Origin: an uncultured Acidimicrobiales bacterium
GTDB lineage: Bacteria > Actinomycetota > Acidimicrobiia > Acidimicrobiales > SHLQ01
Assembly (NCBI GenBank): GCA_964451305.1
Contig: CAYVHV010000007.1
Coordinates: 20,616 to 84,615, forward strand
Length of the DNA: 64,000 nt
Direction: 5' to 3'
Part shown: positions 7,607 through 45,589 of the stretch, piece by piece
Numbering within the stretch: the stretch's first letter is position 1
Layout: each line of letters begins with the position of its first letter
The notes under the pieces: generated by a model
The model's database searches: none
Seen by the model: only the letters and a program-made list of their open reading frames with translations
Told to the model about the DNA's origin: nothing
Translations under genes and position numbers: made by a program

Positions 7607-9076
7607 ATGGCTGTTCTTGCAATCGACGCTGGTACTACCGGAGTTCGTTCAATGGCATTTAGTGATGCCGGAACGATTCTTGCATCCTCCTACCAGGAAT
7701 TCCCCCAGTACTTCCCTGAACCGGGTTGGGTCGAGCACGACATCGACGAGATATGGACCGCGGTCCGAAAAACCATGGCCGACGTGGCAGAAGCGCTCGA
7801 CGAACCCATCGCCACGATCGGCATCACCAACCAACGCGAGACCGTGGTTGTCTGGGACAAATCGACGGGTGAGGCGCTTCACCGCGCCCTCGTCTGGCAG
7901 GACAGGCGCACATCGAAACGGATCCACGAACTCGACGAGCAAGGACACCTCGCTCTCGTTCGTGGAACGACGGGCCTCGTCCTCGATCCGTACTTCTCGG
8001 CGAGCAAACTCGAATGGCTCATACGTGGCGGTCACATCACCGTCGATGCAAACACGGCGTTCGGCACGGTCGATAGCTGGCTGTTGTGGAAACTCACCGG
8101 TGGCGATGTCCATCTGACAGACACCACGAACGCGAGCCGGACGCTGCTCTTCGACATCGATGAGATGGCCTGGGCCGATGATTTGCTCGAGCTATTTGGA
8201 GTCCCCGCATCGGTCCTTCCCGAGGTTCGGCCATCGTCGGCACGCTTCGGCGTGACCGCATTGGACCTACCCGTGCCCGCGGGTATCCCGATCTCGGGTG
8301 TTGCGGGCGACCAACAGTCATCGCTTTTCGGTCAGGCATGTTTCGAACCGGGGATGGCCAAAAACACCTATGGAACTGGTTCATTTATCTTGATGAACGT
8401 CGGTTCGGACTTACCCCAGCCCGTCGACGGTCTGCTCTCCACGGTCGGGTGGACACTCGGCGATGGTTCGACGACGTACGCGCTCGAAGGCGCGGTCTTT
8501 GTCGCTGGCGCAGCGATTCAGTGGCTCCGCGACGGGCTCGGGATCATCGATGAGGCATCGGAGGTCGGTCCGCTCGCGGCATCTGTCGACAGTTCCGACG
8601 ATGTCTTCATCGTCCCCGCCTTCGCAGGGTTGGGGAGTCCGTGGTGGGATGCCGATGCTCGGGGAACGATCGTTGGTCTCACTCGCGGAACGACGCGAGC
8701 CCACATCGCCCGAGCAACCGTCGAAGCGATTGCTCTTCAAACCCGCGATGTGATCGACGCGATGGCCGATGCCGGTGGAGTGAACGTGGACAACCTTCGC
8801 GTCGATGGTGGAGCATCCGCGATGGAGCTCCTCCTACAAATTCAAGCCGACCAGCTCGGCGTTTCCGTCCATCGTTCGACGATCGGCGAAACCACGGCAC
8901 TCGGTGCGGCATACCTCGCCGGTCTGGCCGAAGGGGTTTGGGCGAACATGTCGGAAATCGCCGAAGCATGGACCTCGGATCTCTCCGTCACGGCGAGTAC
9001 CGACCGCGGCCCTGTCGATGTGCTGCATGGCCGATGGTTGCAAGCGCTCGATCGCAGTAAGGGTTGGGTTAGCTAG
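7607..9076 (+). CDS. glpK: glycerol kinase
   Basis: MAVLAIDAGTTGVRS..., ITNQRETVVVWDK, and FGGY-family sugar kinase similarity along the full length. An alternative upstream start exists at 7580. Confidence 0.93.
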   Translation: MAVLAIDAGTTGVRSMAFSDAGTILASSYQEFPQYFPEPGWVEHDIDEIWTAVRKTMADVAEALDEPIATIGITNQRETVVVWDKSTGEALHRALVWQDRRTSKRIHELDEQGHLALVRGTTGLVLDPYFSASKLEWLIRGGHITVDANTAFGTVDSWLLWKLTGGDVHLTDTTNASRTLLFDIDEMAWADDLLELFGVPASVLPEVRPSSARFGVTALDLPVPAGIPISGVAGDQQSSLFGQACFEPGMAKNTYGTGSFILMNVGSDLPQPVDGLLSTVGWTLGDGSTTYALEGAVFVAGAAIQWLRDGLGIIDEASEVGPLAASVDSSDDVFIVPAFAGLGSPWWDADARGTIVGLTRGTTRAHIARATVEAIALQTRDVIDAMADAGGVNVDNLRVDGGASAMELLLQIQADQLGVSVHRSTIGETTALGAAYLAGLAEGVWANMSEIAEAWTSDLSVTASTDRGPVDVLHGRWLQALDRSKGWVS

Positions 9077-9096
9077 GCGTCCGTCGGCGGCGACAT

Positions 9097-10803
9097 CTAC
9101 TTCGCCTCCGACCAGCGCGTGATGATCTGGGTATCGGTGACGAATCGAACCTCCGGTTCGGGAGACCAATAGTGCGCGGCTTCATGCACGGCGTTGGTAA
9201 CCATGAGCGCAGCCTCGTCTGCTCGATCCTCTGGCACATGGACGAGCAGCTCGTCGTGTAGGCAGAGCACGACCTCGGCACCGAGCGGTCGAGCGTGACG
9301 TCGGACGGTAATTGCCCACACCTTGAAGAACTCCGCTGCAGCGCCTTGGATCAGCGCATTGCGGGCGTACCGACCTCGTGCAGCCGCGACCGAAACTGCC
9401 CGGTCAAGATTGCCGTCCTGGCCGTGATCAGATGACATGTGAACCCGCCGGCCGCCGCTCGTAAAGATGTCGACGGATCGCCGTCCTGACTCCGCTGCAT
9501 CTTCGAGCAACGACATCGCTGTCGGATAGTTCTTTTGGAGACCGGCGAGGGCGCCTGCAGATTCGCCGGTTGTGGCGCCATACATCGCTCCGAGCACCGC
9601 AAGTTTCGCCAGGTCTCGGGTGATTCCGAGTCGTTGGGCGATGGGGGAGTAGAGGTCATCACCCTGGGTCGCCTCGATCAGCGCCCGATCTCCTGACACC
9701 GCTGCGAGAACCCGTGGTTCGATCTGGCCGAGGTCGGCGCGAACAAAGCGATATCCGTCCTCGGCAGAAACGACCGATCGCATCGTCAGAGGAAGGTTGT
9801 GGAGACCCGCCGACGCAGTCATGCGACCCGCCGCACCATCGGAACTCGACCACGAACCGCGAAGTCGCCCGCCATTGACATGCTCATCCAGCCACCGGTA
9901 CCCGTAGGTGGTGGCGATCCGTTCGGCCTTCCTCCAGGTGAGCAACGCGTCGATGAAGGGCTCGGTCTCACGGAGCTGCTCGAGCCGCCACGCTCTCGTG
10001 TCGGGAAGGTCGAAGCCAACCAGTTCGAGCATGCGCTTGACGTCGGAGGGATTGCGAAGGTTCACCTCGCGTCGCGGTTCGAGGAGGTCGAGCACGACCG
10101 CGTCGCGTCTCGCTCGAATCTCTTGCTCATGGGACCACGATGATGGCCGAGGGCCGGCGGACTCCACAATCAGGTCGTGGGCTGCTGCCTCGTCTATCGG
10201 GAGACCGGCTGAAGAGATCTCAGCGCACAAGAGCGCGGCGGCCGACTCGGAGCGAGCGGTGGCGCGAACACGAGCGGGATTGGGTCGGGCATCGATCAGC
10301 TGGTCCTGTCGTCGAGCAGTGTCGAGCGCGAGCGACGCCCACTCCGCAAGCCGGTCAGTTGATCGTGCGAAACCACCGTCGATCCACTCTGGCCGCAGGT
10401 GTCCATCGGGCATCACCGCCTCGGTCTGGTCGCCCTCCTCAACCGCAGCATCCAACAGCCCGAGCTGGCCCATCTTCGGAAGCGTGTCGAGTGGTAGGCC
10501 GTGCAGCGACGCCCAGGCTTCACCAATGGAGGTTCTCCACCCGCCGGCGAGCAATCGATGGACGGCTAGAATGTCCCAACAGCGATCGATCCCGATGCCC
10601 GCGCTCGCAATGAGTGTGGTGGTTTCTTCGCCCCACCACACCCAGCGGGGTCCGTTCGAGTCGACCAGTTCAGTCAGCTGGTGGAGCGGGTCGTCGGTCT
10701 CGATTGCCCAACGGTGCGAGCCCCGGGCCAATCCCAGCCCAATTCCGGGCGAGATCGCCACGCCGACGAGATCATCTCGGGCTAGATCGATCGGCCGATT
10801 CAC
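9097..10803 (-). CDS. short family-A DNA polymerase (PolA-like; no 5'-3' exonuclease domain)
   Basis: Pol A motifs are present: A (DLGQIEPRVLA), B (RDLAKLAVLGAMYGATTG) and C (CLHDELLVHV). The protein is only 568 aa, and its N-terminal ~250 aa lack clear DEDD exonuclease motifs. Confidence 0.8.
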   Translation of the reverse strand: MNRPIDLARDDLVGVAISPGIGLGLARGSHRWAIETDDPLHQLTELVDSNGPRWVWWGEETTTLIASAGIGIDRCWDILAVHRLLAGGWRTSIGEAWASLHGLPLDTLPKMGQLGLLDAAVEEGDQTEAVMPDGHLRPEWIDGGFARSTDRLAEWASLALDTARRQDQLIDARPNPARVRATARSESAAALLCAEISSAGLPIDEAAAHDLIVESAGPRPSSWSHEQEIRARRDAVVLDLLEPRREVNLRNPSDVKRMLELVGFDLPDTRAWRLEQLRETEPFIDALLTWRKAERIATTYGYRWLDEHVNGGRLRGSWSSSDGAAGRMTASAGLHNLPLTMRSVVSAEDGYRFVRADLGQIEPRVLAAVSGDRALIEATQGDDLYSPIAQRLGITRDLAKLAVLGAMYGATTGESAGALAGLQKNYPTAMSLLEDAAESGRRSVDIFTSGGRRVHMSSDHGQDGNLDRAVSVAAARGRYARNALIQGAAAEFFKVWAITVRRHARPLGAEVVLCLHDELLVHVPEDRADEAALMVTNAVHEAAHYWSPEPEVRFVTDTQIITRWSEAK

Positions 10804-10856
10804 AGAAGGTGTCTACTAGTTCTGATCCGACAGCGCTAGTGGTGCCATACTGGGGC

Positions 10857-11471
10857 ATGGACATTGATTTCTGGGTGGATCCTATTTGACCATGGTGTTG
10901 GGTGACGGCCCGTTGGGTCGTCGAAGAGGTAGCCCCGAAGCGCGATCTGAACATCACGTGGCAGCCGATCAGCCTGCTACTCAAGAACCAGATGGACGAG
11001 AGCGACGAGCCTTATCCTCGCTACCTCAGAACGCACCGAATGCTCCGGGTAATGGAGTCGGTGCGTGCTGCCGAGGGCGATGAGCCGATCGGCGATCTCT
11101 ACTGGGAGTACGGACGGCGAGTTCACCACGACAAGGATCGTGACTTCGATGTTTCCGAAGCACTCGCTGCGGTTGGACTTGATACGTCGCACGCGAGCGC
11201 AGCCGATGACGAGTCATGGGACGCGAAGATCCTCGAACGCCAAGCCGTTGGCATCGAACTCGCGGGCGAGGACATCGGCACACCGATCATTGCATTCGAC
11301 GACAAGAACGGCGATCGAAAGGCGTACTTCGGTCCGGTGATTACTCGAGTACCGCCCGGAGATGAAGCCGTGGAGATGTGGGACGCCCTAATGACGTTGA
11401 TGAACGTCAATGGTTTCTGGGAACTCAAGCGAACCCGAACCGAGCGGCCGGAGTTCGGCGAGCGCCCGTAG
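10857..11471 (+). CDS. DsbA-like mycothiol-type reductase of the Rv2466c family, predicted selenoprotein (UPWC instead of CPWC); TGA at 10887-10889 read as Sec
   Basis: Track ORFs 10614..10889 and 10902..11471 are in the same frame and separated only by one TGA. The joined product is MDIDFWVDPI-U-PWCWVTARWVVEEV...GTPIIAF...FWELKRTRTERPEF. This resembles Rv2466c end to end, as I recall its sequence. Confidence 0.7.
10904..10922 (+). promoter_or_regulatory. candidate SECIS hairpin for the 10887 UGA
   Basis: GACGGCCC-GTT-GGGTCGTC forms an 8-bp stem with one G-U wobble at pair 5. The apical loop is GUU (or CGUUG if the closing pair opens). The stem begins 17 nt after the U of UGA. Confidence 0.55.
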
Positions 11472-11495
11472 TCGGCGACGCCGGCGGGCTCGGAA

Positions 11496-12533
11496 CTACG
11501 CGTCCGAACCGCTCACCGCAAGTTCGACCCGATTCCGACCCAAACGCTTGGCGTCGTAAAGTGCAGCGTCAGAGCGTCGGAACCAGCTTCGGGCTGACTC
11601 TCCATGGCGATACATCGAGACTCCAAACGACATGGTGACCTCGACCTCGCCAGGCTGCGAGATCGCGATTCGGTCCCTGATCGACTCTGTCATGCCTTGG
11701 GCGAGCTCTGGAGATACCCCAACCATGATGAGAGCAAACTCCTCACCACCGATACGAAAGGCGGTGTCATCGCTTCGGAATGCGGCTTCGAGCTCTCGGG
11801 CGACCTCTTGAAGCACGCGGTCGCCGCCATAGTGGCCGCGCTCATCGTTGATCTTCTTGAAATGGTCGATGTCGCCGAGCACTAACGCCGCGGTTGTGTT
11901 GGTCTCGGTCAAGCTCTCTTCGAGCTCGGTGAGCGTGGCCTCGAACAAACGTCGGTTACCCAACCGGGTAAGGCCATCGATACTGGCGGCCTGTCTGTAG
12001 TGAAGGTCAGAGTTCATGAGTTCCACCGACAAGACCCGGATGATGAGGATCAAGCAGAGAAACGTTCCGAAGCGGAAGAACGACTCATAGTCGACCGACT
12101 TCGCTGGGCCCAACGCGGTGAGCGTCGAGGCGGCGATCAAGAACATGAAGCTGTGACGGAGACTGCGCCCGGTGAACAGGACGGGGAAGAGCACGGCGAA
12201 CGACGCGAGGAATGGAAAGAACGGTGAGCTGGCGCCTCCGGTGAAGAAGATCGCAACACCGAACATCGCAACGCTCGTGTACTGGTCGGCGACGTAAATG
12301 AACTCGGCGTCGTGGCCTTTGGAGACAAGTTTTCGGGCCATGGCGGCCTTCAAGGCATCGACGATCGGAGGTAATCCAGCCCACCAGCCGTAGAACGGTA
12401 TCGCTGCGAGCATCAACAGACCCGAAGCGGCGTACAGCGGTACCAATGCCGGATACATACGATCCGACATCTCCACGACGCGACTCGTCGCCCTGTGCCC
12501 AACCTCATTTTCCCGCTCCATATGCTTCACCAT
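11496..12533 (-). CDS. membrane-anchored diguanylate cyclase (GGDEF)
   Basis: The N-terminal half is multi-pass hydrophobic. The C-terminal GGDEF domain carries the active site RIGGEEF and an upstream RxxD I-site (RSDD). Confidence 0.85.
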   Translation of the reverse strand: MVKHMERENEVGHRATSRVVEMSDRMYPALVPLYAASGLLMLAAIPFYGWWAGLPPIVDALKAAMARKLVSKGHDAEFIYVADQYTSVAMFGVAIFFTGGASSPFFPFLASFAVLFPVLFTGRSLRHSFMFLIAASTLTALGPAKSVDYESFFRFGTFLCLILIIRVLSVELMNSDLHYRQAASIDGLTRLGNRRLFEATLTELEESLTETNTTAALVLGDIDHFKKINDERGHYGGDRVLQEVARELEAAFRSDDTAFRIGGEEFALIMVGVSPELAQGMTESIRDRIAISQPGEVEVTMSFGVSMYRHGESARSWFRRSDAALYDAKRLGRNRVELAVSGSDA

Positions 12534-12575
12534 CGGCAGGCGGTACAGAGATCTGAGCGCCGATGTTATGTGCGG

Positions 12576-13820
12576 CTACCTCGCCGCCTCGCGTTCGCTC
12601 CACGTGGTGATAACGCCTGCACGAGACGCGATCACCTTTGGGACTGCACGACTGCAATGGCGGGACCACAAACCAAGCGTGTTGGCCCCGGTTCCAGAAA
12701 TGACGAGCCAGTCACCCTCGGAAAGCTCGGGTAATTCGAGATCTCGTTGAAGGACATCGCCAGCAAAACAGAGCGGACCGACCACGTCATAGGTCTGTGT
12801 CGCCTCACCGGGGTCGTTGGACGTAACGACTCGTCCATCAGGCTTTACGACTGCGAAGCCGTATGTCACGGGGCCCGAGCTGTTGTAGATATCGCGCATG
12901 AAGTAGTCAGCGCCGAGATGCACGAACGCCATTGGCACCGAGCGCGCTTCGATACTCTCGACTCGGGTAGCTGCCCATCCGGCTGCGGAGTGCACCCATT
13001 GACCGAACTCGGTGCGTACGTCGTAGGTGAACAGGTCGCTGTGATCTGACTGCAGCCGTTGGCCGTACTGCGACATCAGGGCATCGCTGTCGGCTTCGGT
13101 ACGCAATCCGCCACCAATGTCGAGCGTGGTTATCCGGCGATCGTCATCACGTTCAGCTCGCGCCGTGTCGACCGCGTCCGCGATGTCGAGGAGGCGACCG
13201 ACCGCTTCGACATGGGCATCACAGGTTGGGACCTGGCTTCCAATGTGCATGTGGAGCGCAGTGACCCCGGCGTCCACGCATGCCGCAATAATGTTGGACC
13301 GATCGCTCACCGGAACGCCAAACTTGCTTCGTTCGGCGCTTACGTCGAACTCGAGTGGTGCGCCGGTGGCGACTTCTGGGTTGATCCGTAGTCCAACCTG
13401 AAACGCTGGGGACTCGGGATAGCGATGTAGTTCTGCGATGGAGTTCGCATTGAGCAGCGCTCCGGGAAGGTTGATCTGGCACCAGGAAATCTCGGCGCGG
13501 GTCTTGACGGGCGAGTCGAAGATCAGGTCCCGCGGAGCGGCCCCTGTCTGCAACGCCAAGCGCACCTCTTCAATCGATGCTGCCTCGAGTCCGAAACCAC
13601 GAGCTGTAAGATGCGCGAGCATCTTTGGGTGCGGCATGGTTTTGATAGCGATCGAATGGCGTACCGAAGACGGAAACGATGCTCGGAGCGACTCGAGCTG
13701 TGCATCGAGCACATCGAGTTCGACACCGATGAGCGCCGTGTCGTCTTCGCCGAGGTCGACAAGAGCGGTAGCGAGCGATGTCGCAGCGAGCCGTGTCAGA
13801 GGCTCACGGCGAGCATTCAT
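12576..13820 (-). CDS. type III PLP-dependent decarboxylase (Orn/DAP/Arg decarboxylase family 2)
   Basis: Alanine-racemase-fold barrel motifs are present (IAIKTMPHPKML with the PLP lysine context, HMHIGSQ, TLDIGGGL), plus a C-terminal beta domain VVGPLCFAGD. Confidence 0.8.
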   Translation of the reverse strand: MNARREPLTRLAATSLATALVDLGEDDTALIGVELDVLDAQLESLRASFPSSVRHSIAIKTMPHPKMLAHLTARGFGLEAASIEEVRLALQTGAAPRDLIFDSPVKTRAEISWCQINLPGALLNANSIAELHRYPESPAFQVGLRINPEVATGAPLEFDVSAERSKFGVPVSDRSNIIAACVDAGVTALHMHIGSQVPTCDAHVEAVGRLLDIADAVDTARAERDDDRRITTLDIGGGLRTEADSDALMSQYGQRLQSDHSDLFTYDVRTEFGQWVHSAAGWAATRVESIEARSVPMAFVHLGADYFMRDIYNSSGPVTYGFAVVKPDGRVVTSNDPGEATQTYDVVGPLCFAGDVLQRDLELPELSEGDWLVISGTGANTLGLWSRHCSRAVPKVIASRAGVITTWSEREAAR

Positions 13821-15265
13821 GCGAGTCGCTCGGCGTATTCGGCGATGATTTCCACGAGTCGTTCGTCGTCATCCATGAACAGGTCACCTCGGCGAAGCAT
13901 CCAGCGAATCGTCGGCGCCCCGATCGCAAAACGAATAAACGAGCGGTCGCCGTAGCGGACGGGTTGGCCAAAGAAGACGCGGCGAGCGCCGTCGCTGAGC
14001 CCGTCGTACTCGGTTGTGATCACGTCACGATAGAGCTGGAGAAGTTCGTCGTGAGAGAGTTCTCGACCGCCGGCGAGCACCTGTGTCGAGATGATCGAGT
14101 CGTTCGTCATGTGTTGGTCCGGCATCAACCGGAAGTTCGGATGTCCATCGATGATGTTCGACAGCTCGGTGTTCCATTTGAGGATCAGCGCATTGGTGAC
14201 ATCGAATGGCCAGCTGGCGTAGCTCTCCATCTCGTCGAGGGCGATCTGCCACCGCAGCCGCAGGCCGCGATTTTCTTCCAAAGGCAGGTGTTGGCGCACG
14301 TTGTCGAGTGCCCAGGGCACATCGTGTGCGCTGAAGATCTGTCCGAACGGAGCGACGGAGTCACCGTTGGTTTCAGCAGCGCGAAGGCGTTCGGTTATCG
14401 TGCGCGGAACGAGCAGTGCTCCACAGAATGGGGGAGTCTGAAAGAACTTGCTTCCTGTAAGCATCACGGTGGCGCCGCGATCGAGCAGGTCGTGCAAGAG
14501 CGCAGGATCTACCCGCATCTGGCAGAGATCAACAACCCACATGACGTGGTCGCCGTAATCGTCGATGACGTCGAGGTCGTCCTTGATACCGGACTTTGAA
14601 CCAAAGACGAGGCTACCGACGATGGCAGCATCAGGGTTGTCCTCGATGAGTTGCACGATCTGGTCGCGTCGGTCGAGAACGTTGCCAGCTTCATCTCGTG
14701 CATCGAGCTCGATAACCGTTGGTTCGGGCATCGTTGGATCTATTGGTGTTCCCTGTCCGATCGCTTGGCCGAATTGGTTTTGTCGACCGAACAATCGCGC
14801 TGCGGCTGCGTCTCGCGATCCGCTGCCGAGCTCTTCGGGGCATGAGATAATCTGGATGATCTCTTTGCCTGGGTGGAGAAGGCGCTGGAACAGTGTCGGG
14901 AAGTAGGCGAGGTCGGTGCCCGATGGGCCGAAGAAGACATCGAGCGGGTCGTTGTGCGCCGAACTCAACAGGTTCTTCAGCCGAAATGTTTGTTCCTCGA
15001 CCAGCGTCGCGTAATTGAGCGTGTCGTAGCGTTCGAGAAACTCGGCTGCGACGTCGCGGGACCGGCCGTTGAGCATGCCCGCGGTGCAGCTTCCACGGTT
15101 GAAGACCTCACGACTGTCGACCGGGTTGAGGTAGTAGCGGTTGAGACCCGTTGTCTCATCGAGTTCAGTGCGTTCATCGCCGCCAGCGGTAAGCGCTTCA
15201 AGCAGTTGCGAATCATCGACGTTGGTCAACGTCTGGATAGTCGATCTCTCGTCTGGGTTGCTCAC
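13817..15265 (-). CDS. hypothetical protein, probably a fold-type I (class V aminotransferase-like) PLP enzyme
   Basis: The 482-aa ORF has coding-like codon usage. The segment VMLTGSKFFQTPPFCGALLVP resembles the S-x-[HS]-K...P-x-G-x-G-x-L PLP-lysine region. Its stop overlaps the decarboxylase start by 4 nt (13817-13820). Confidence 0.5.
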   Translation of the reverse strand: MSNPDERSTIQTLTNVDDSQLLEALTAGGDERTELDETTGLNRYYLNPVDSREVFNRGSCTAGMLNGRSRDVAAEFLERYDTLNYATLVEEQTFRLKNLLSSAHNDPLDVFFGPSGTDLAYFPTLFQRLLHPGKEIIQIISCPEELGSGSRDAAAARLFGRQNQFGQAIGQGTPIDPTMPEPTVIELDARDEAGNVLDRRDQIVQLIEDNPDAAIVGSLVFGSKSGIKDDLDVIDDYGDHVMWVVDLCQMRVDPALLHDLLDRGATVMLTGSKFFQTPPFCGALLVPRTITERLRAAETNGDSVAPFGQIFSAHDVPWALDNVRQHLPLEENRGLRLRWQIALDEMESYASWPFDVTNALILKWNTELSNIIDGHPNFRLMPDQHMTNDSIISTQVLAGGRELSHDELLQLYRDVITTEYDGLSDGARRVFFGQPVRYGDRSFIRFAIGAPTIRWMLRRGDLFMDDDERLVEIIAEYAERLA

Positions 15266-44913: not shown

Positions 44914-44956
44914 ACTGAGGTAGCAGCGAGGACTTTCTTCGCGAATGGGAGTGCAA

Positions 44957-45589
44957 ATGAGACCGGTAAAGATCACTGTCTATTCGGACTTTATTTGACC
45001 ATGGTGTTGGGTCGGGACCGTGCGTCTCGACAGGTTGAAGGAAAAGTACGGCGATCGCGTCGACATCGAGTGGAAAGCATTCTTGCTTCGCACTGGACCT
45101 CGTGATTGGCAGCGCGCAGACTTCTTGCACTACACCCGTTCGTGGATGCGTCCAAAGGAAGCCGAACCCGAGCTGGACTTCACCATCTGGGCGACCGATG
45201 ACCCCCAGCCGCATTCCAGCATCGAGGCTCAGGTCGCCTTCAAAGTGCTTGAAGAACTGGCGCCGGAAAATGCGAAGGCGTATCACGACCGGATCATGAA
45301 GGCGTACTTCGTGGAGAACCGCGACATCAGCAACGCAGACATCCTCACCGGCCTCGCCGTCGACGTAGGCGTCGATGCAGCGGCGTTCCAAGCAGCGATT
45401 GAAACTCGTAGCGAAGTGATGGTCGAGCGGGTATTCGAGGAATACAACAGCGCAATTTCACAGAACGTCACGGGCATCCCAACCGTGGTGTTCGAAGACC
45501 AGTTTCCAGTCGTCGGTGCTCAGCCGCTCGAAACCTATGAAGACATCGTCGAGCAGATCGAGAAGCAGCTCGAGTCGATGGCCGATTGA
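44957..45589 (+). CDS. DsbA-family (FrnE-like) thiol:disulfide oxidoreductase, predicted selenoprotein (UPWC); TGA at 44996-44998 read as Sec
   Basis: The ATG at 44957 (GGGAG 7 nt upstream) gives MRPVKITVYSDFI-U-PWCWVGTVRLDRLKEKYGDR... in frame with track ORF 45020..45589. The N-terminal beta-strand plus [CU]PWC is the canonical DsbA/FrnE start, and GIPTVVF is the cis-Pro loop. Confidence 0.7.
45011..45031 (+). promoter_or_regulatory. candidate SECIS hairpin for the 44996 UGA
   Basis: GTCGGGAC-CGTGC-GTCTCGAC forms an 8-bp stem with a G-U wobble at pair 5 and the apical loop CGUGC. The stem starts 15 nt after the U of UGA. Confidence 0.55.

What the first reader, a model, noticed from the sequence alone, without database searches (positions are those of the whole stretch)
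10857..11471. In-frame UGA replaces the nucleophilic Cys of an Rv2466c-type CPWC reductase (predicted selenoprotein)
- **Split ORFs:** the ORF track breaks this gene in two. ORF 10614..10889 ends ...MDIDFWVDPI followed by TGA (10887-10889). ORF 10902..11471 continues in the same frame.
- **Read-through product:** MDIDFWVDPI-U-PWCWVTARWVVEEV...FWELKRTRTERPEF. As I recall, Rv2466c reads ...DFWFDPLCPWCWITSRW......FFELKRTRTEPPQF, so the match covers both ends and the UGA sits exactly on the first Cys of CPWC.
- **Without recoding:** the downstream ORF has only a GTG start, no catalytic motif and no N-terminal beta-strand.
- **Hairpin:** an 8-bp hairpin (10904-10922) lies 17 nt after the UGA.

A Sec version of this mycothiol-dependent reductase family would be mis-annotated by standard pipelines.
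Basis: partly seen in the sequence, partly recalled or inferred. Interest (0 to 1): 0.82.

Follow-up and report, generated by a model that had tools for sequence, protein, structure and literature searches.

The report
Selenocysteine-coding Rv2466c-type DsbA-like reductase gene
This is very probably a real selenoprotein gene: a thiol-reductase of the mycobacterial Rv2466c type in which a conserved UGA, followed by a conserved RNA hairpin, replaces the catalytic cysteine, and which public annotations cut short; it belongs to a kind of selenoprotein already known.

Summary
ATG 10857, in-frame TGA 10887-10889 and the same frame running to TAG 11471 give MDIDFWVDPI-U-PWCW..., a full-length Rv2466c-like protein (Pfam PF22234, 3.4e-42; PDB Rv2466c, about 1e-41). 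The UGA sits on the first Cys of CPWC.

- **Not an error or a pseudogene.** The same TGA occurs in four independent assemblies. It is in 26 of 31 related species genomes and in at least 120 Acidimicrobiia genomes found by a DNA pattern.
- **The hairpin behaves like a bacterial SECIS.** Hairpin 10904-10922 meets all four consensus criteria. Its synonymous sites are nearly frozen, and the changes that do occur are compensatory.
- **The machinery is present in relatives.** Eight genomes that carry the TGA form, five of them on the same chromosome record, also encode adjacent selA-selB. Related loci hold selD and tRNA-Sec.
- **The window has a second such gene.** A second DsbA-like gene with UGA-PWC lies at 44996.

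The source genome's own sel genes could not be checked, and selenium insertion is inferred. "DsbA-like UxxC" selenoproteins have been known since 2005, and Acidimicrobiales are known Sec users. This is therefore a new, widely truncated-in-annotation member of a known kind, and I score interest at 0.35.

The parts
10857..11471 (+). Complete selenoprotein coding sequence: 204 codons plus stop, with U at codon 11. It is an Rv2466c-like / DsbA-like thiol-disulfide reductase.
   Evidence: Translation. Pfam PF22234 at 3.4e-42 and PF01323 at 30 bits against a cut-off of 25.6. PDB 4zil, 4nxi and 5xur at about 1e-41 over the full length.
10857..10859 (+). Start codon (ATG).
   Evidence: A start codon at this position is conserved in orthologues: ATG in most, GTG in L014, L016 and L021. 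The sequence upstream of it is not conserved, and L003 and L010 have stop codons there.
10887..10889 (+). Sec-UGA codon, replacing the nucleophilic Cys (Cys19 of Rv2466c).
   Evidence: It aligns to the first Cys of CPWC. TGA is present in 26 of 31 species loci and in at least 120 further genomes. It is identical in 4 independent assemblies.
10896..10898 (+). TGT codon for the retained second (resolving) Cys of the U-P-W-C motif.
   Evidence: Sequence. Invariant in the alignment of homologues.
10904..10922 (+). Putative bacterial SECIS hairpin: stem 10904-10911, loop GUU 10912-10914, stem 10915-10922. It lies inside the codons for V-T-A-R-W-V-V.
   Evidence: - **Pairing.** 99.5% of cells are paired. 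Pair 33-45 occurs as GC, AU, UA and UG, and 0 of 500 shuffles reach the observed covariation score.
- **Wider sample.** 131 unique sequences keep the pairing, with GC, GU, AU, UA, UG and CG variants.
- **Synonymous sites.** Entropy at 4-fold sites is 0.30 in the hairpin against 1.39 in the rest of the gene, p = 4e-5.
- **Consensus.** It meets the bSECIS criteria of PMC13188914. MFE is -13.9 kcal/mol.
10902..10904 (+). The GTG that gene callers use as a false start; it is the Val codon of W-V-T.
   Evidence: ORF list. The 189-aa database entries start MTARW.
44945..45589 (+). Second, unrelated DsbA-family gene in the same window with an in-frame UGA in the same U-P-W-C position. TGA is at 44996-44998. 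The hairpin GUCGGGAC-CGUGC-GUCUCGAC is at 45011-45031. The start is ATG 44945 or 44957.
   Evidence: Scan and translation. Pfam PF01323 at 2e-26. A homologue in L080 has a stop at the same site. The nearest 38 homologue clusters are all N-terminally truncated.

Best explanation
**What it is.** The locus is one intact gene, 10857-11471, for a cytoplasmic DsbA-fold thiol-disulfide reductase of the Rv2466c (mycoredoxin-2, 'DsbA-Mrx1') type. Its nucleophilic active-site residue is selenocysteine.

**How the UGA is decoded (inferred).** Translation starts at ATG 10857. At UGA 10887 the ribosome does not terminate. The hairpin 10904-10922, 22 nt downstream and within the coding sequence, is bound by the Sec-specific elongation factor SelB. 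SelB delivers Sec-tRNA(Sec), which is made by SelA from selenophosphate supplied by SelD. The product carries a U-P-W-C redox centre.

**How the enzyme would work (inferred).**
- The selenolate attacks mixed disulfides or other oxidised substrates.
- The retained Cys, three residues on, resolves the selenenylsulfide.
- The enzyme is re-reduced by a low-molecular-weight thiol system, by analogy mycothiol / mycothione reductase / NADPH.

**What is shown.** Gene integrity, homology, the position of the UGA, its conservation across more than 120 genomes, the conserved and covarying hairpin, and selA-selB in carrier genomes.

**What is inferred.** Actual selenium insertion, SelB binding to this hairpin, and the substrate and reductant of the enzyme.
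For: **Homology**
- The protein matches Rv2466c over its full length, with the UGA on the first Cys of CPWC. Cys19 is the nucleophile and Cys22 the resolving residue in Rv2466c (PMC8280269, citing Rosado 2017).

**The TGA is conserved**
- It is the same TGA, never another stop codon, in 26 of 31 species-level loci at 57-94% amino-acid identity.
- The 10 codons upstream vary only at synonymous sites: GTG/GTA/GTT/GTC, GAT/GAC, CCT/CCC/CCG, ATT/ATA/ATC.
- At least 120 further Acidimicrobiia genomes match a pattern that left third positions free.
- Cys-form homologues at 56-67% identity exist, giving Sec/Cys pairs.

**Not a base-call error**
- The sequence is identical in assemblies from 4 samples.

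**The hairpin meets all four bSECIS criteria**
- 3-nt loop and 8-bp stem.
- G then U in the first loop positions.
- 22 nt from UGA to the loop.
- MFE of -13.9 kcal/mol.

**The hairpin is under selection**
- The two pairs made of two third-codon positions covary: G-C becomes A-U, U-A, U-G or C-G at one, and G-C becomes A-U or G-U at the other.
- 4-fold sites in the hairpin are nearly frozen: entropy 0.30 against 1.39, Mann-Whitney p = 4e-5.
- All three free pairs are intact in 128 of 129 Sec forms but in only 2 of 7 Cys forms, Fisher p = 3e-7.

**Machinery**
- Acidimicrobiales selA-selB operons were identified.
- Five chromosome records carry both the TGA gene and selA-selB: OY730440.1, OZ244195.1, OZ241331.1, NZ_OZ242364.1 and OZ241903.1. 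So do three MAGs: JBCCFL01, CAWAEN01 and JAJDZO01.
- selD lies within 10 kb of selA in 13 related loci, and tRNA-Sec in 9.
- The literature lists Ilumatobacter and Ca. Microthrix as SelD+ SelA+ SelB+ with 7-15 selenoproteins.

**Same genome**
- A second U-P-W-C DsbA-family gene with its own hairpin lies at 44996.
- TGA is an ordinary stop in 8 of 22 confident ORFs of the window, so the recoding is site-specific.
Against: - No sel gene or tRNA-Sec lies in the 64-kb window. The rest of the source genome could not be searched.
- The folding energy of the region is not better than that of shuffles.
- Five of the eight stem pairs are fixed by the amino-acid sequence V-T-A-R-W-V-V. Only three pairs can give independent evidence.
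- Two close Cys-form (TGT) homologues also keep the hairpin. The hairpin alone therefore does not discriminate perfectly.
- No Rfam model exists for such elements.
- There is no experimental evidence of selenium in any member of this clade.
- Mycothiol use in this organism was not tested.
Confidence: 0.9

Rival explanations
1. UGA 10887 is a true stop. The functional product is the 189-aa protein started at GTG 10902, as annotated in the databases, and the 10 upstream codons form a short leader ORF or are untranslated.
For: This is what gene callers and NCBI annotate. TGA is a normal stop elsewhere in the window.
Against: - The truncated product would lack the first beta-strand and the whole redox motif.
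- The strand (D-F-W-x-D-P) and the P-W-C-W lying between the TGA and the GTG are conserved at the amino-acid level, with synonymous variation, across more than 120 genomes.
- The stop is always TGA, never TAA or TAG.
- In Cys-form relatives the same GTG is an internal Val codon of a full-length protein.
Confidence: 0.03
2. The locus is a pseudogene or an assembly or sequencing error: a TGC/TGT codon turned into TGA by a nonsense change.
For: A single base separates TGA from TGT or TGC, and close Cys-form relatives carry TGT.
Against: - The TGA is identical in four independent assemblies and in at least 120 species-level genomes.
- There are no frameshifts or other stops.
- The downstream part is conserved at 57-94% identity.
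- Synonymous-site constraint sits exactly on the hairpin.
Confidence: 0.01
3. The UGA is read through or recoded, but not as selenocysteine. Possibilities are near-cognate Trp or Cys insertion, or Cys-tRNA(Sec) delivered by SelB when selenium is scarce. The hairpin would act as a read-through stimulator.
For: No experiment shows selenium in this protein. The window's own sel genes were not seen. Misacylated tRNA(Sec) can insert Cys in other bacteria (established knowledge, not tested here).
Against: - The UGA sits on a redox-active Cys that has Cys-containing homologues.
- The hairpin fits the SECIS consensus.
- Carrier genomes hold selA-selB.
- The lineage is a documented Sec user with large selenoproteomes.
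- Trp at the nucleophile position would inactivate the enzyme.
Confidence: 0.06

Closest known systems
'DsbA-like protein' selenoprotein family. It has a UxxC motif and is filed under PF01323 / COG2761. It was first found in the Sargasso Sea metagenome (Zhang et al. 2005, PMC1088965), counted in 41 organisms by Peng et al. 2016 (PMC5029168), and listed as 'DsbA-like protein form 1' in the 2026 review PMC13188914.
   Same: - Thioredoxin/DsbA-fold protein.
- Sec replaces the first Cys of CxxC, giving UxxC.
- The bSECIS lies directly downstream in the coding region.
- Cys homologues are widespread.
- The window protein also passes the PF01323 threshold.
   Different: - The window protein's best family is the separate Pfam model PF22234 (Rv2466c-like). 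It shares only about 16 residues of local similarity with the classical PF01323 DsbA-like gene in the same window.
- Whether the published representatives (NIP15863.1, AACY01178397) belong to this clade could not be checked.
- No paper in the searchable library mentions Rv2466c together with selenocysteine.
Mycobacterium tuberculosis Rv2466c (mycoredoxin-2, Mrx-2) and Corynebacterium NCgl2339 / NCgl2478, the 'DsbA-Mrx1 cluster'.
   Same: - Full-length homology at E about 1e-41 to PDB 4zil, 4nxi and 5xur.
- The x-P-W-C active-site motif.
- The C-terminal ELKRTRTE motif.
- No signal peptide is apparent in the short N-terminus, which suggests a cytoplasmic reductase rather than a periplasmic oxidase.
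   Different: - The nucleophilic Cys19 is replaced by UGA/Sec.
- The host is an Acidimicrobiales bacterium, not a member of the Mycobacteriales.
- Dependence on mycothiol and nitroreductase or prodrug activation were not tested. Acidimicrobiia are reported to carry mycothiol-related genes (PMC4337565, PMC5962788).
Bacterial SECIS elements: the E. coli fdhF type and the bSECISearch consensus.
   Same: A stem-loop lies immediately 3' of UGA inside the ORF. It has a small apical loop starting G-U and a spacing of 22 nt (the allowed range is 16-37). MFE is below -7.5 kcal/mol.
   Different: There is no sequence similarity to the E. coli elements and no Rfam model. Much of the stem is hard-wired by an invariant peptide, V-T-A-R-W-V-V.

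Membership tests
Bacterial selenoprotein gene | In-frame UGA aligned with a conserved, redox-active Cys in homologues (a Sec/Cys pair). | tested here: met
   The UGA falls on the first Cys of CPWC in Rv2466c structures. It also falls there in 35 full-length Cys-form homologues at 56-67% identity.
Bacterial selenoprotein gene | The UGA is conserved in orthologues, with coding conservation on both sides. | tested here: met
   26 of 31 species loci carry it, as do at least 120 further genomes. Upstream codons vary only synonymously.
Bacterial selenoprotein gene | A bSECIS stem-loop downstream that meets the consensus: loop 3-9 nt, stem 4-16 bp, G in the first two loop positions, 16-37 nt from the UGA, MFE at or below -7.5 kcal/mol. 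| tested here: met
   Loop GUU, 8-9 bp stem, 22 nt spacing, -13.9 kcal/mol, judged against the criteria quoted. Covariation and synonymous constraint support it.
Bacterial selenoprotein gene | The Sec-decoding machinery (selA, selB, selC, selD) is in the same genome. | tested here: inconclusive
- **Other carriers.** selA-selB are on the same chromosome record in 5 cases and in the same MAG in 3.
- **Related loci.** selD and tRNA-Sec were seen next to selA in other Acidimicrobiia loci.
- **Indirect support.** A second UGA-PWC gene lies in the window.
Bacterial selenoprotein gene | Selenium is actually incorporated at the UGA. | not testable with these tools
   This needs 75Se labelling or mass spectrometry.
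Rv2466c-like / DsbA-Mrx1 cluster (mycoredoxin-2) | Sequence membership in Pfam PF22234 and full-length similarity to the solved Rv2466c structures. | tested here: met
   145 bits against a cut-off of 27, covering profile positions 1-180 of 180. PDB E values are 1e-41 to 1e-38.
Rv2466c-like / DsbA-Mrx1 cluster (mycoredoxin-2) | The C-P-W/F-C active-site motif. | tested here: met
   The motif is U-P-W-C: Sec stands in for the first Cys, and Pro, Trp and the second Cys are retained. The motif definition is taken from PMC8280269.
Rv2466c-like / DsbA-Mrx1 cluster (mycoredoxin-2) | DsbA-like three-dimensional fold. | not tested
   This is inferred only from sequence alignment to solved structures.
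Rv2466c-like / DsbA-Mrx1 cluster (mycoredoxin-2) | Reductase activity that depends on mycothiol / mycothione reductase / NADPH. | not testable with these tools
   Only literature hints exist that Acidimicrobiia carry mycothiol-related genes.
Published 'DsbA-like protein form 1' selenoprotein family | PF01323 domain with a UxxC motif. | tested here: met
   PF01323 scores 30.0 bits against a cut-off of 25.6, and the motif is U-P-W-C.
Published 'DsbA-like protein form 1' selenoprotein family | Orthology with the published representatives (NIP15863.1, Sargasso contig AACY01178397). | not testable with these tools
   Those sequences are not retrievable here. The second gene at 44996, a plain PF01323 protein, may be the closer match.

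The most novel reading that the evidence does not exclude
The Rv2466c / mycoredoxin-2 subfamily has a natural selenocysteine form that is the dominant, probably ancestral state across the order Acidimicrobiales.

- **A first for this redox system.** It would be the first selenoenzyme tied to the actinobacterial mycothiol-type redox system.
- **RNA constrains the protein.** The SECIS is embedded so tightly in the helix after the active site that it freezes the peptide V-T-A-R-W-V-V.
- **Repeated reversion.** Sec has reverted to Cys more than once (TGA to TGT), leaving fossil hairpins.
- **Missed by annotation.** None of this is recognised in annotation pipelines, which truncate the protein in most public records.
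Probability: 0.4. Interest if true: 0.5.

Novelty: new member of a known kind. Interest (0 to 1): 0.35.

Why it matters
- **Annotation.** At least 120 species-level genomes, and most database clusters of this protein, carry a 189-aa truncation that lacks the catalytic centre. No NCBIfam model exists that would let PGAP call the Sec codon. One added model would fix a systematic error across Acidimicrobiia, including abundant marine, freshwater, sponge-associated and activated-sludge lineages.
- **Biochemistry.** Close natural Sec/Cys pairs (U-P-W-C against C-P-W-C at 60-67% identity) of an enzyme with solved structures and established assays would make a clean system for measuring what selenium buys a DsbA-fold reductase.
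- **Evolution.** The locus shows an RNA element and a protein helix constraining each other.

It does not change what is known about how selenoproteins work.

Tried and rejected
- **Rfam.** Gathering thresholds over the whole window and E up to 10 around the site gave no hits. This was expected, because Rfam has no bacterial SECIS model of this type.
- **tRNAs.** ARAGORN on the window and on 30 related loci found no tRNA-Sec.
- **sel genes in held sequence.** Nothing was found.
- **Route that did find the machinery.** A GC-biased DNA pattern for the SelA pyridoxal-phosphate motif, followed by a SelA alignment search.
- **Other recoded genes.** A GC3-based screen of the window was uninformative. 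A screen for UGA plus a hairpin then found the second gene. Its hit at 2331 ('PT*PWCF') was rejected as chance, because that frame does not read like a protein.
- **Thermodynamics.** Hairpin significance from folding energy was rejected as evidence (z = 0.75).
- **Literature.** I found no per-organism list showing this exact gene already catalogued, and no paper linking Rv2466c with selenocysteine.
- **Genome-wide UGA reassignment.** Rejected, because TGA ends 8 of 22 confident ORFs in the window.

Full report
**1. Observation**

ATG is at 10857 and TGA at 10887-10889, and the same frame stays open to TAG 11469-11471. The ORF tool splits the gene into 10614..10889 and a GTG-started 189-aa ORF at 10902..11471.

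Read through, the product is MDIDFWVDPI-U-PWCWVTARW...ELKRTRTERPEFGERP. With Cys in place of the stop it matches Pfam PF22234 (Rv2466c-like) over the whole profile at 3.4e-42, and PF01323 (DSBA) just above threshold. It aligns end to end with the solved Rv2466c structures 4zil, 4nxi and 5xur at about 1e-41. In those alignments the stop falls on the first Cys of D-P-L-C-P-W-C-W. That residue is Cys19, the nucleophile, and Cys22 is the resolving Cys (PMC8280269, citing Rosado 2017).

The hairpin GACGGCCC-GUU-GGGUCGUC lies at 10904-10922.

**2. Not an error, not decay**

- The identical 189-aa downstream ORF is on record in 36 blocks of public assemblies. Four loci from four different samples all show the same ATG...TGA...hairpin sequence.
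- A search of one genome per species returned 31 loci, nearly all Acidimicrobiales. They include the cultured Salinilacustrithrix flava and a closed chromosome.
- Twenty-six of the 31 have TGA, never TAA or TAG, at exactly this codon. Protein identity ranges from 57 to 94%. Five have TGC, in CPFC or CPWA contexts.
- Upstream of the TGA the codons for (D/E)-F-W-(V/I)-D-P-(I/V/A) vary at third positions only, so the ten upstream codons are translated. A start codon sits at a conserved distance. Further upstream nothing is conserved, and some loci have stops there.
All that carry a class-level label are Acidimicrobiia: Ca. Microthrix, Ilumatobacter, Ca. Poriferisodalis, Ca. Aldehydirespirator and Ferrithrix.
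- Among the 120 best protein clusters, 85 are truncated at or near the same GTG. The other 35 are full-length C-P-W/F-C forms at 56-67% identity.

**3. The hairpin**

Five of the eight pairs are dictated by first and second codon positions of V-T-A-R-W-V-V. Only three pairs are free to vary: 10904-10922, 10907-10919 and 10910-10916.

- *First set of 26 sequences.* 99.5% of cells are paired. Pair 10907-10919, two third positions, occurs as G-C (21), A-U, U-A and U-G. No shuffle of 500 reaches the observed covariation, and slid registers collapse to 14-59% pairing.
- *Wider set of 131 unique sequences.* The same pair also occurs as C-G and G-U. The outer pair occurs as G-C, G-U and A-U, and the inner free pair as C-G or U-G. 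The closing pair is C-G, or A.G when Arg is coded AGG. The loop is always G-U-U or G-G-U.
- *Synonymous constraint.* Four-fold degenerate sites inside the hairpin have mean entropy 0.30 bits, against 1.39 for 55 such sites in the rest of the gene (p = 4e-5).
- *Consensus.* The element meets every criterion of the published bacterial SECIS model: loop of 3 nt, stem of 8-9 bp, G then U at the start of the loop, 22 nt between UGA and loop, and -13.9 kcal/mol.

There are three limits to this evidence:

- The 81-nt region does not fold better than shuffles.
- Rfam has no model for such elements.
- Two close TGT (Cys) homologues keep an intact hairpin, whereas five more distant Cys forms have mismatches at the free pairs. 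Intact free pairs occur in 128 of 129 Sec forms against 2 of 7 Cys forms (Fisher p = 3e-7). I read the two TGT cases as recent Sec-to-Cys reversions with a fossil SECIS.

**4. Machinery**

The window has no tRNA and no sel gene, and neither do about 1.2 Mb of carrier loci.

A GC-biased pattern for the SelA pyridoxal-phosphate motif recovered four Acidimicrobiia loci. In L266 and L195 a complete SelA (PF03841, about 1e-91) is followed directly by SelB, which matches GTP_EFTU, the SelB beta-barrel and the SelB winged helix. An alignment of these SelA proteins retrieved 80 Acidimicrobiia loci.

Eight of them belong to genomes that also carry the TGA gene:

| Record | TGA gene locus | selA locus |
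|---|---|---|
| OY730440.1 (chromosome) | L128 | L281 |
| OZ244195.1 (chromosome) | L081 | L311 |
| OZ241331.1 (chromosome) | L133 | L327 |
| NZ_OZ242364.1 (chromosome) | L123 | L333 |
| OZ241903.1 (chromosome) | L140 | L342 |
| JBCCFL01 (MAG) | L038 | L315 |
| CAWAEN01 (MAG) | L132 | L303 |
| JAJDZO01 (MAG) | L059 | L340 |

SelB lies next to SelA in 77 of the 80 loci. SelD lies within 10 kb in 13, and ARAGORN finds tRNA-Sec (anticodon tca) in 9.

Published surveys agree. Ilumatobacter coccineus, I. nonamiensis and Ca. Microthrix parvicella are SelD+ SelA+ SelB+ with 15, 10 and 7 selenoproteins (Peng 2016, Tables S1 and S2). All 84 complete Actinomarina genomes have selA, selB, selC and selD (bioRxiv 10.64898/2026.04.03.716425).

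The source genome itself could not be searched. This is the main open point.

**5. Corroboration inside the window**

A screen for UGA plus a hairpin found a second gene on the + strand. Its start is ATG 44945 or 44957, TGA is at 44996-44998 and its stop is at 45587-45589.

- It reads MRPVKITVYSDFI-U-PWCWVGTV...
- An 8-bp hairpin with loop CGUGC lies 20 nt after the UGA.
- It is a plain PF01323 DsbA-family protein (2e-26) and is unrelated to the first gene beyond the motif.
- A 37%-identical homologue in L080 has a stop at the same site.
- Its 38 nearest database clusters are all N-terminally truncated, and full-length Cys forms appear only at 42% identity or less.

Two independent U-P-W-C genes in 64 kb argue that this organism decodes UGA as Sec. 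TGA also ends 8 of 22 confident ORFs in the window, so the recoding is site-specific.

**6. Mechanism**

- *Shown.* An intact gene, a conserved UGA on the nucleophile position, a conserved and covarying downstream hairpin, and Sec machinery in carrier genomes.
- *Inferred from established knowledge of bacterial Sec insertion.* SelB bound to Sec-tRNA(Sec) recognises the hairpin while the ribosome is at the UGA and inserts Sec.
- *Inferred from homology.* The product is a cytoplasmic DsbA-fold reductase with a selenolate nucleophile and a resolving Cys. It reduces mixed disulfides and is recycled by a low-molecular-weight thiol system. Rv2466c uses mycothiol / Mtr / NADPH, and Acidimicrobiia are reported to carry mycothiol-linked genes. 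That link is not tested here.

**7. Comparison and novelty**

'DsbA-like protein' with UxxC is an established predicted selenoprotein family. It had nine Sargasso Sea sequences in 2005, filed under COG2761, and 41 organisms in 2016. The 2026 review lists it as 'form 1, PF01323'. The window protein satisfies that operational definition.

What I could not find in the literature is any link between the Rv2466c / mycoredoxin-2 subfamily and selenocysteine. No NCBIfam model hits the protein. NCBI records name the truncated product 'disulfide bond formation protein DsbA' or 'hypothetical protein'.

I therefore rate it a new member of a known kind: real, well supported, useful for annotation and enzymology, but not surprising to a selenoprotein specialist.

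**8. Verdict**

- Observation: confirmed.
- Confidence that this is a genuine Sec-coding gene: about 0.9.
- Interest: 0.35.

Noticed in passing
window 44945-45589 (+); TGA 44996-44998; hairpin 45011-45031: A second in-frame-UGA gene lies in the window. It is a PF01323 DsbA-family protein, MRPVKITVYSDFI-U-PWCWVGTV..., with its own SECIS-like hairpin, and the ORF track annotates it as a 189-aa GTG ORF (45020..45589). A homologue in L080 (5969..5358, minus strand) has a stop at the same site. The 38 nearest database clusters are all truncated.
   Followed up: partly
L356 and L358 (Cys-form homologues P0013 and P0015), codon aligned to window 10887: These close C-P-W-C homologues use TGT and still carry the full hairpin in its AGG/GGU-loop variant. 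More distant Cys forms (L357, L359, L022, L027, L028) have lost the free pairs. This looks like recent Sec-to-Cys reversion that left a fossil SECIS.
   Followed up: partly
L057 and L087 (MAG CAXXMY01); L003 and L089 (MAG CALHBU01): Two separate contigs of the same MAG each carry a TGA-form copy. Some genomes may therefore hold two Sec-form paralogues, unless the bins are mixed.
   Followed up: no
L338 and L344 (CAYRUT010000022.1, CAZENK010000026.1): These MAGs are labelled 'uncultured Bifidobacterium sp.', yet they carry an Acidimicrobiia-like selD-selA-selB-tRNA-Sec cluster (55% identity to Acidimicrobiales SelA). The taxonomic label is probably wrong.
   Followed up: no
L316, L320, L321, L326, L336, L343, L347 (around positions 9000-14400): In a subset of Acidimicrobiia, selD, selA, selB and tRNA-Sec lie together within about 5 kb. 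In the chromosomes that carry the TGA gene, only selA-selB are adjacent, and selD and selC lie elsewhere.
   Followed up: partly
window 10879-10882 with 10900-10903: RNAalifold adds a 4-bp helix (ACCC/GGGU) that would enclose the UGA in a loop directly below the SECIS stem. It is invariant apart from one C-to-U change that keeps a wobble pair, so there is no evidence for or against it.
   Followed up: no
window 10904-10924 (peptide V-T-A-R-W-V-V): This heptapeptide is invariant in every Sec form examined, whereas Cys forms vary there (WATARWAV, WLTARWFV, WLSSRWIL). The RNA element appears to constrain the protein sequence of the helix that follows the active site.
   Followed up: partly
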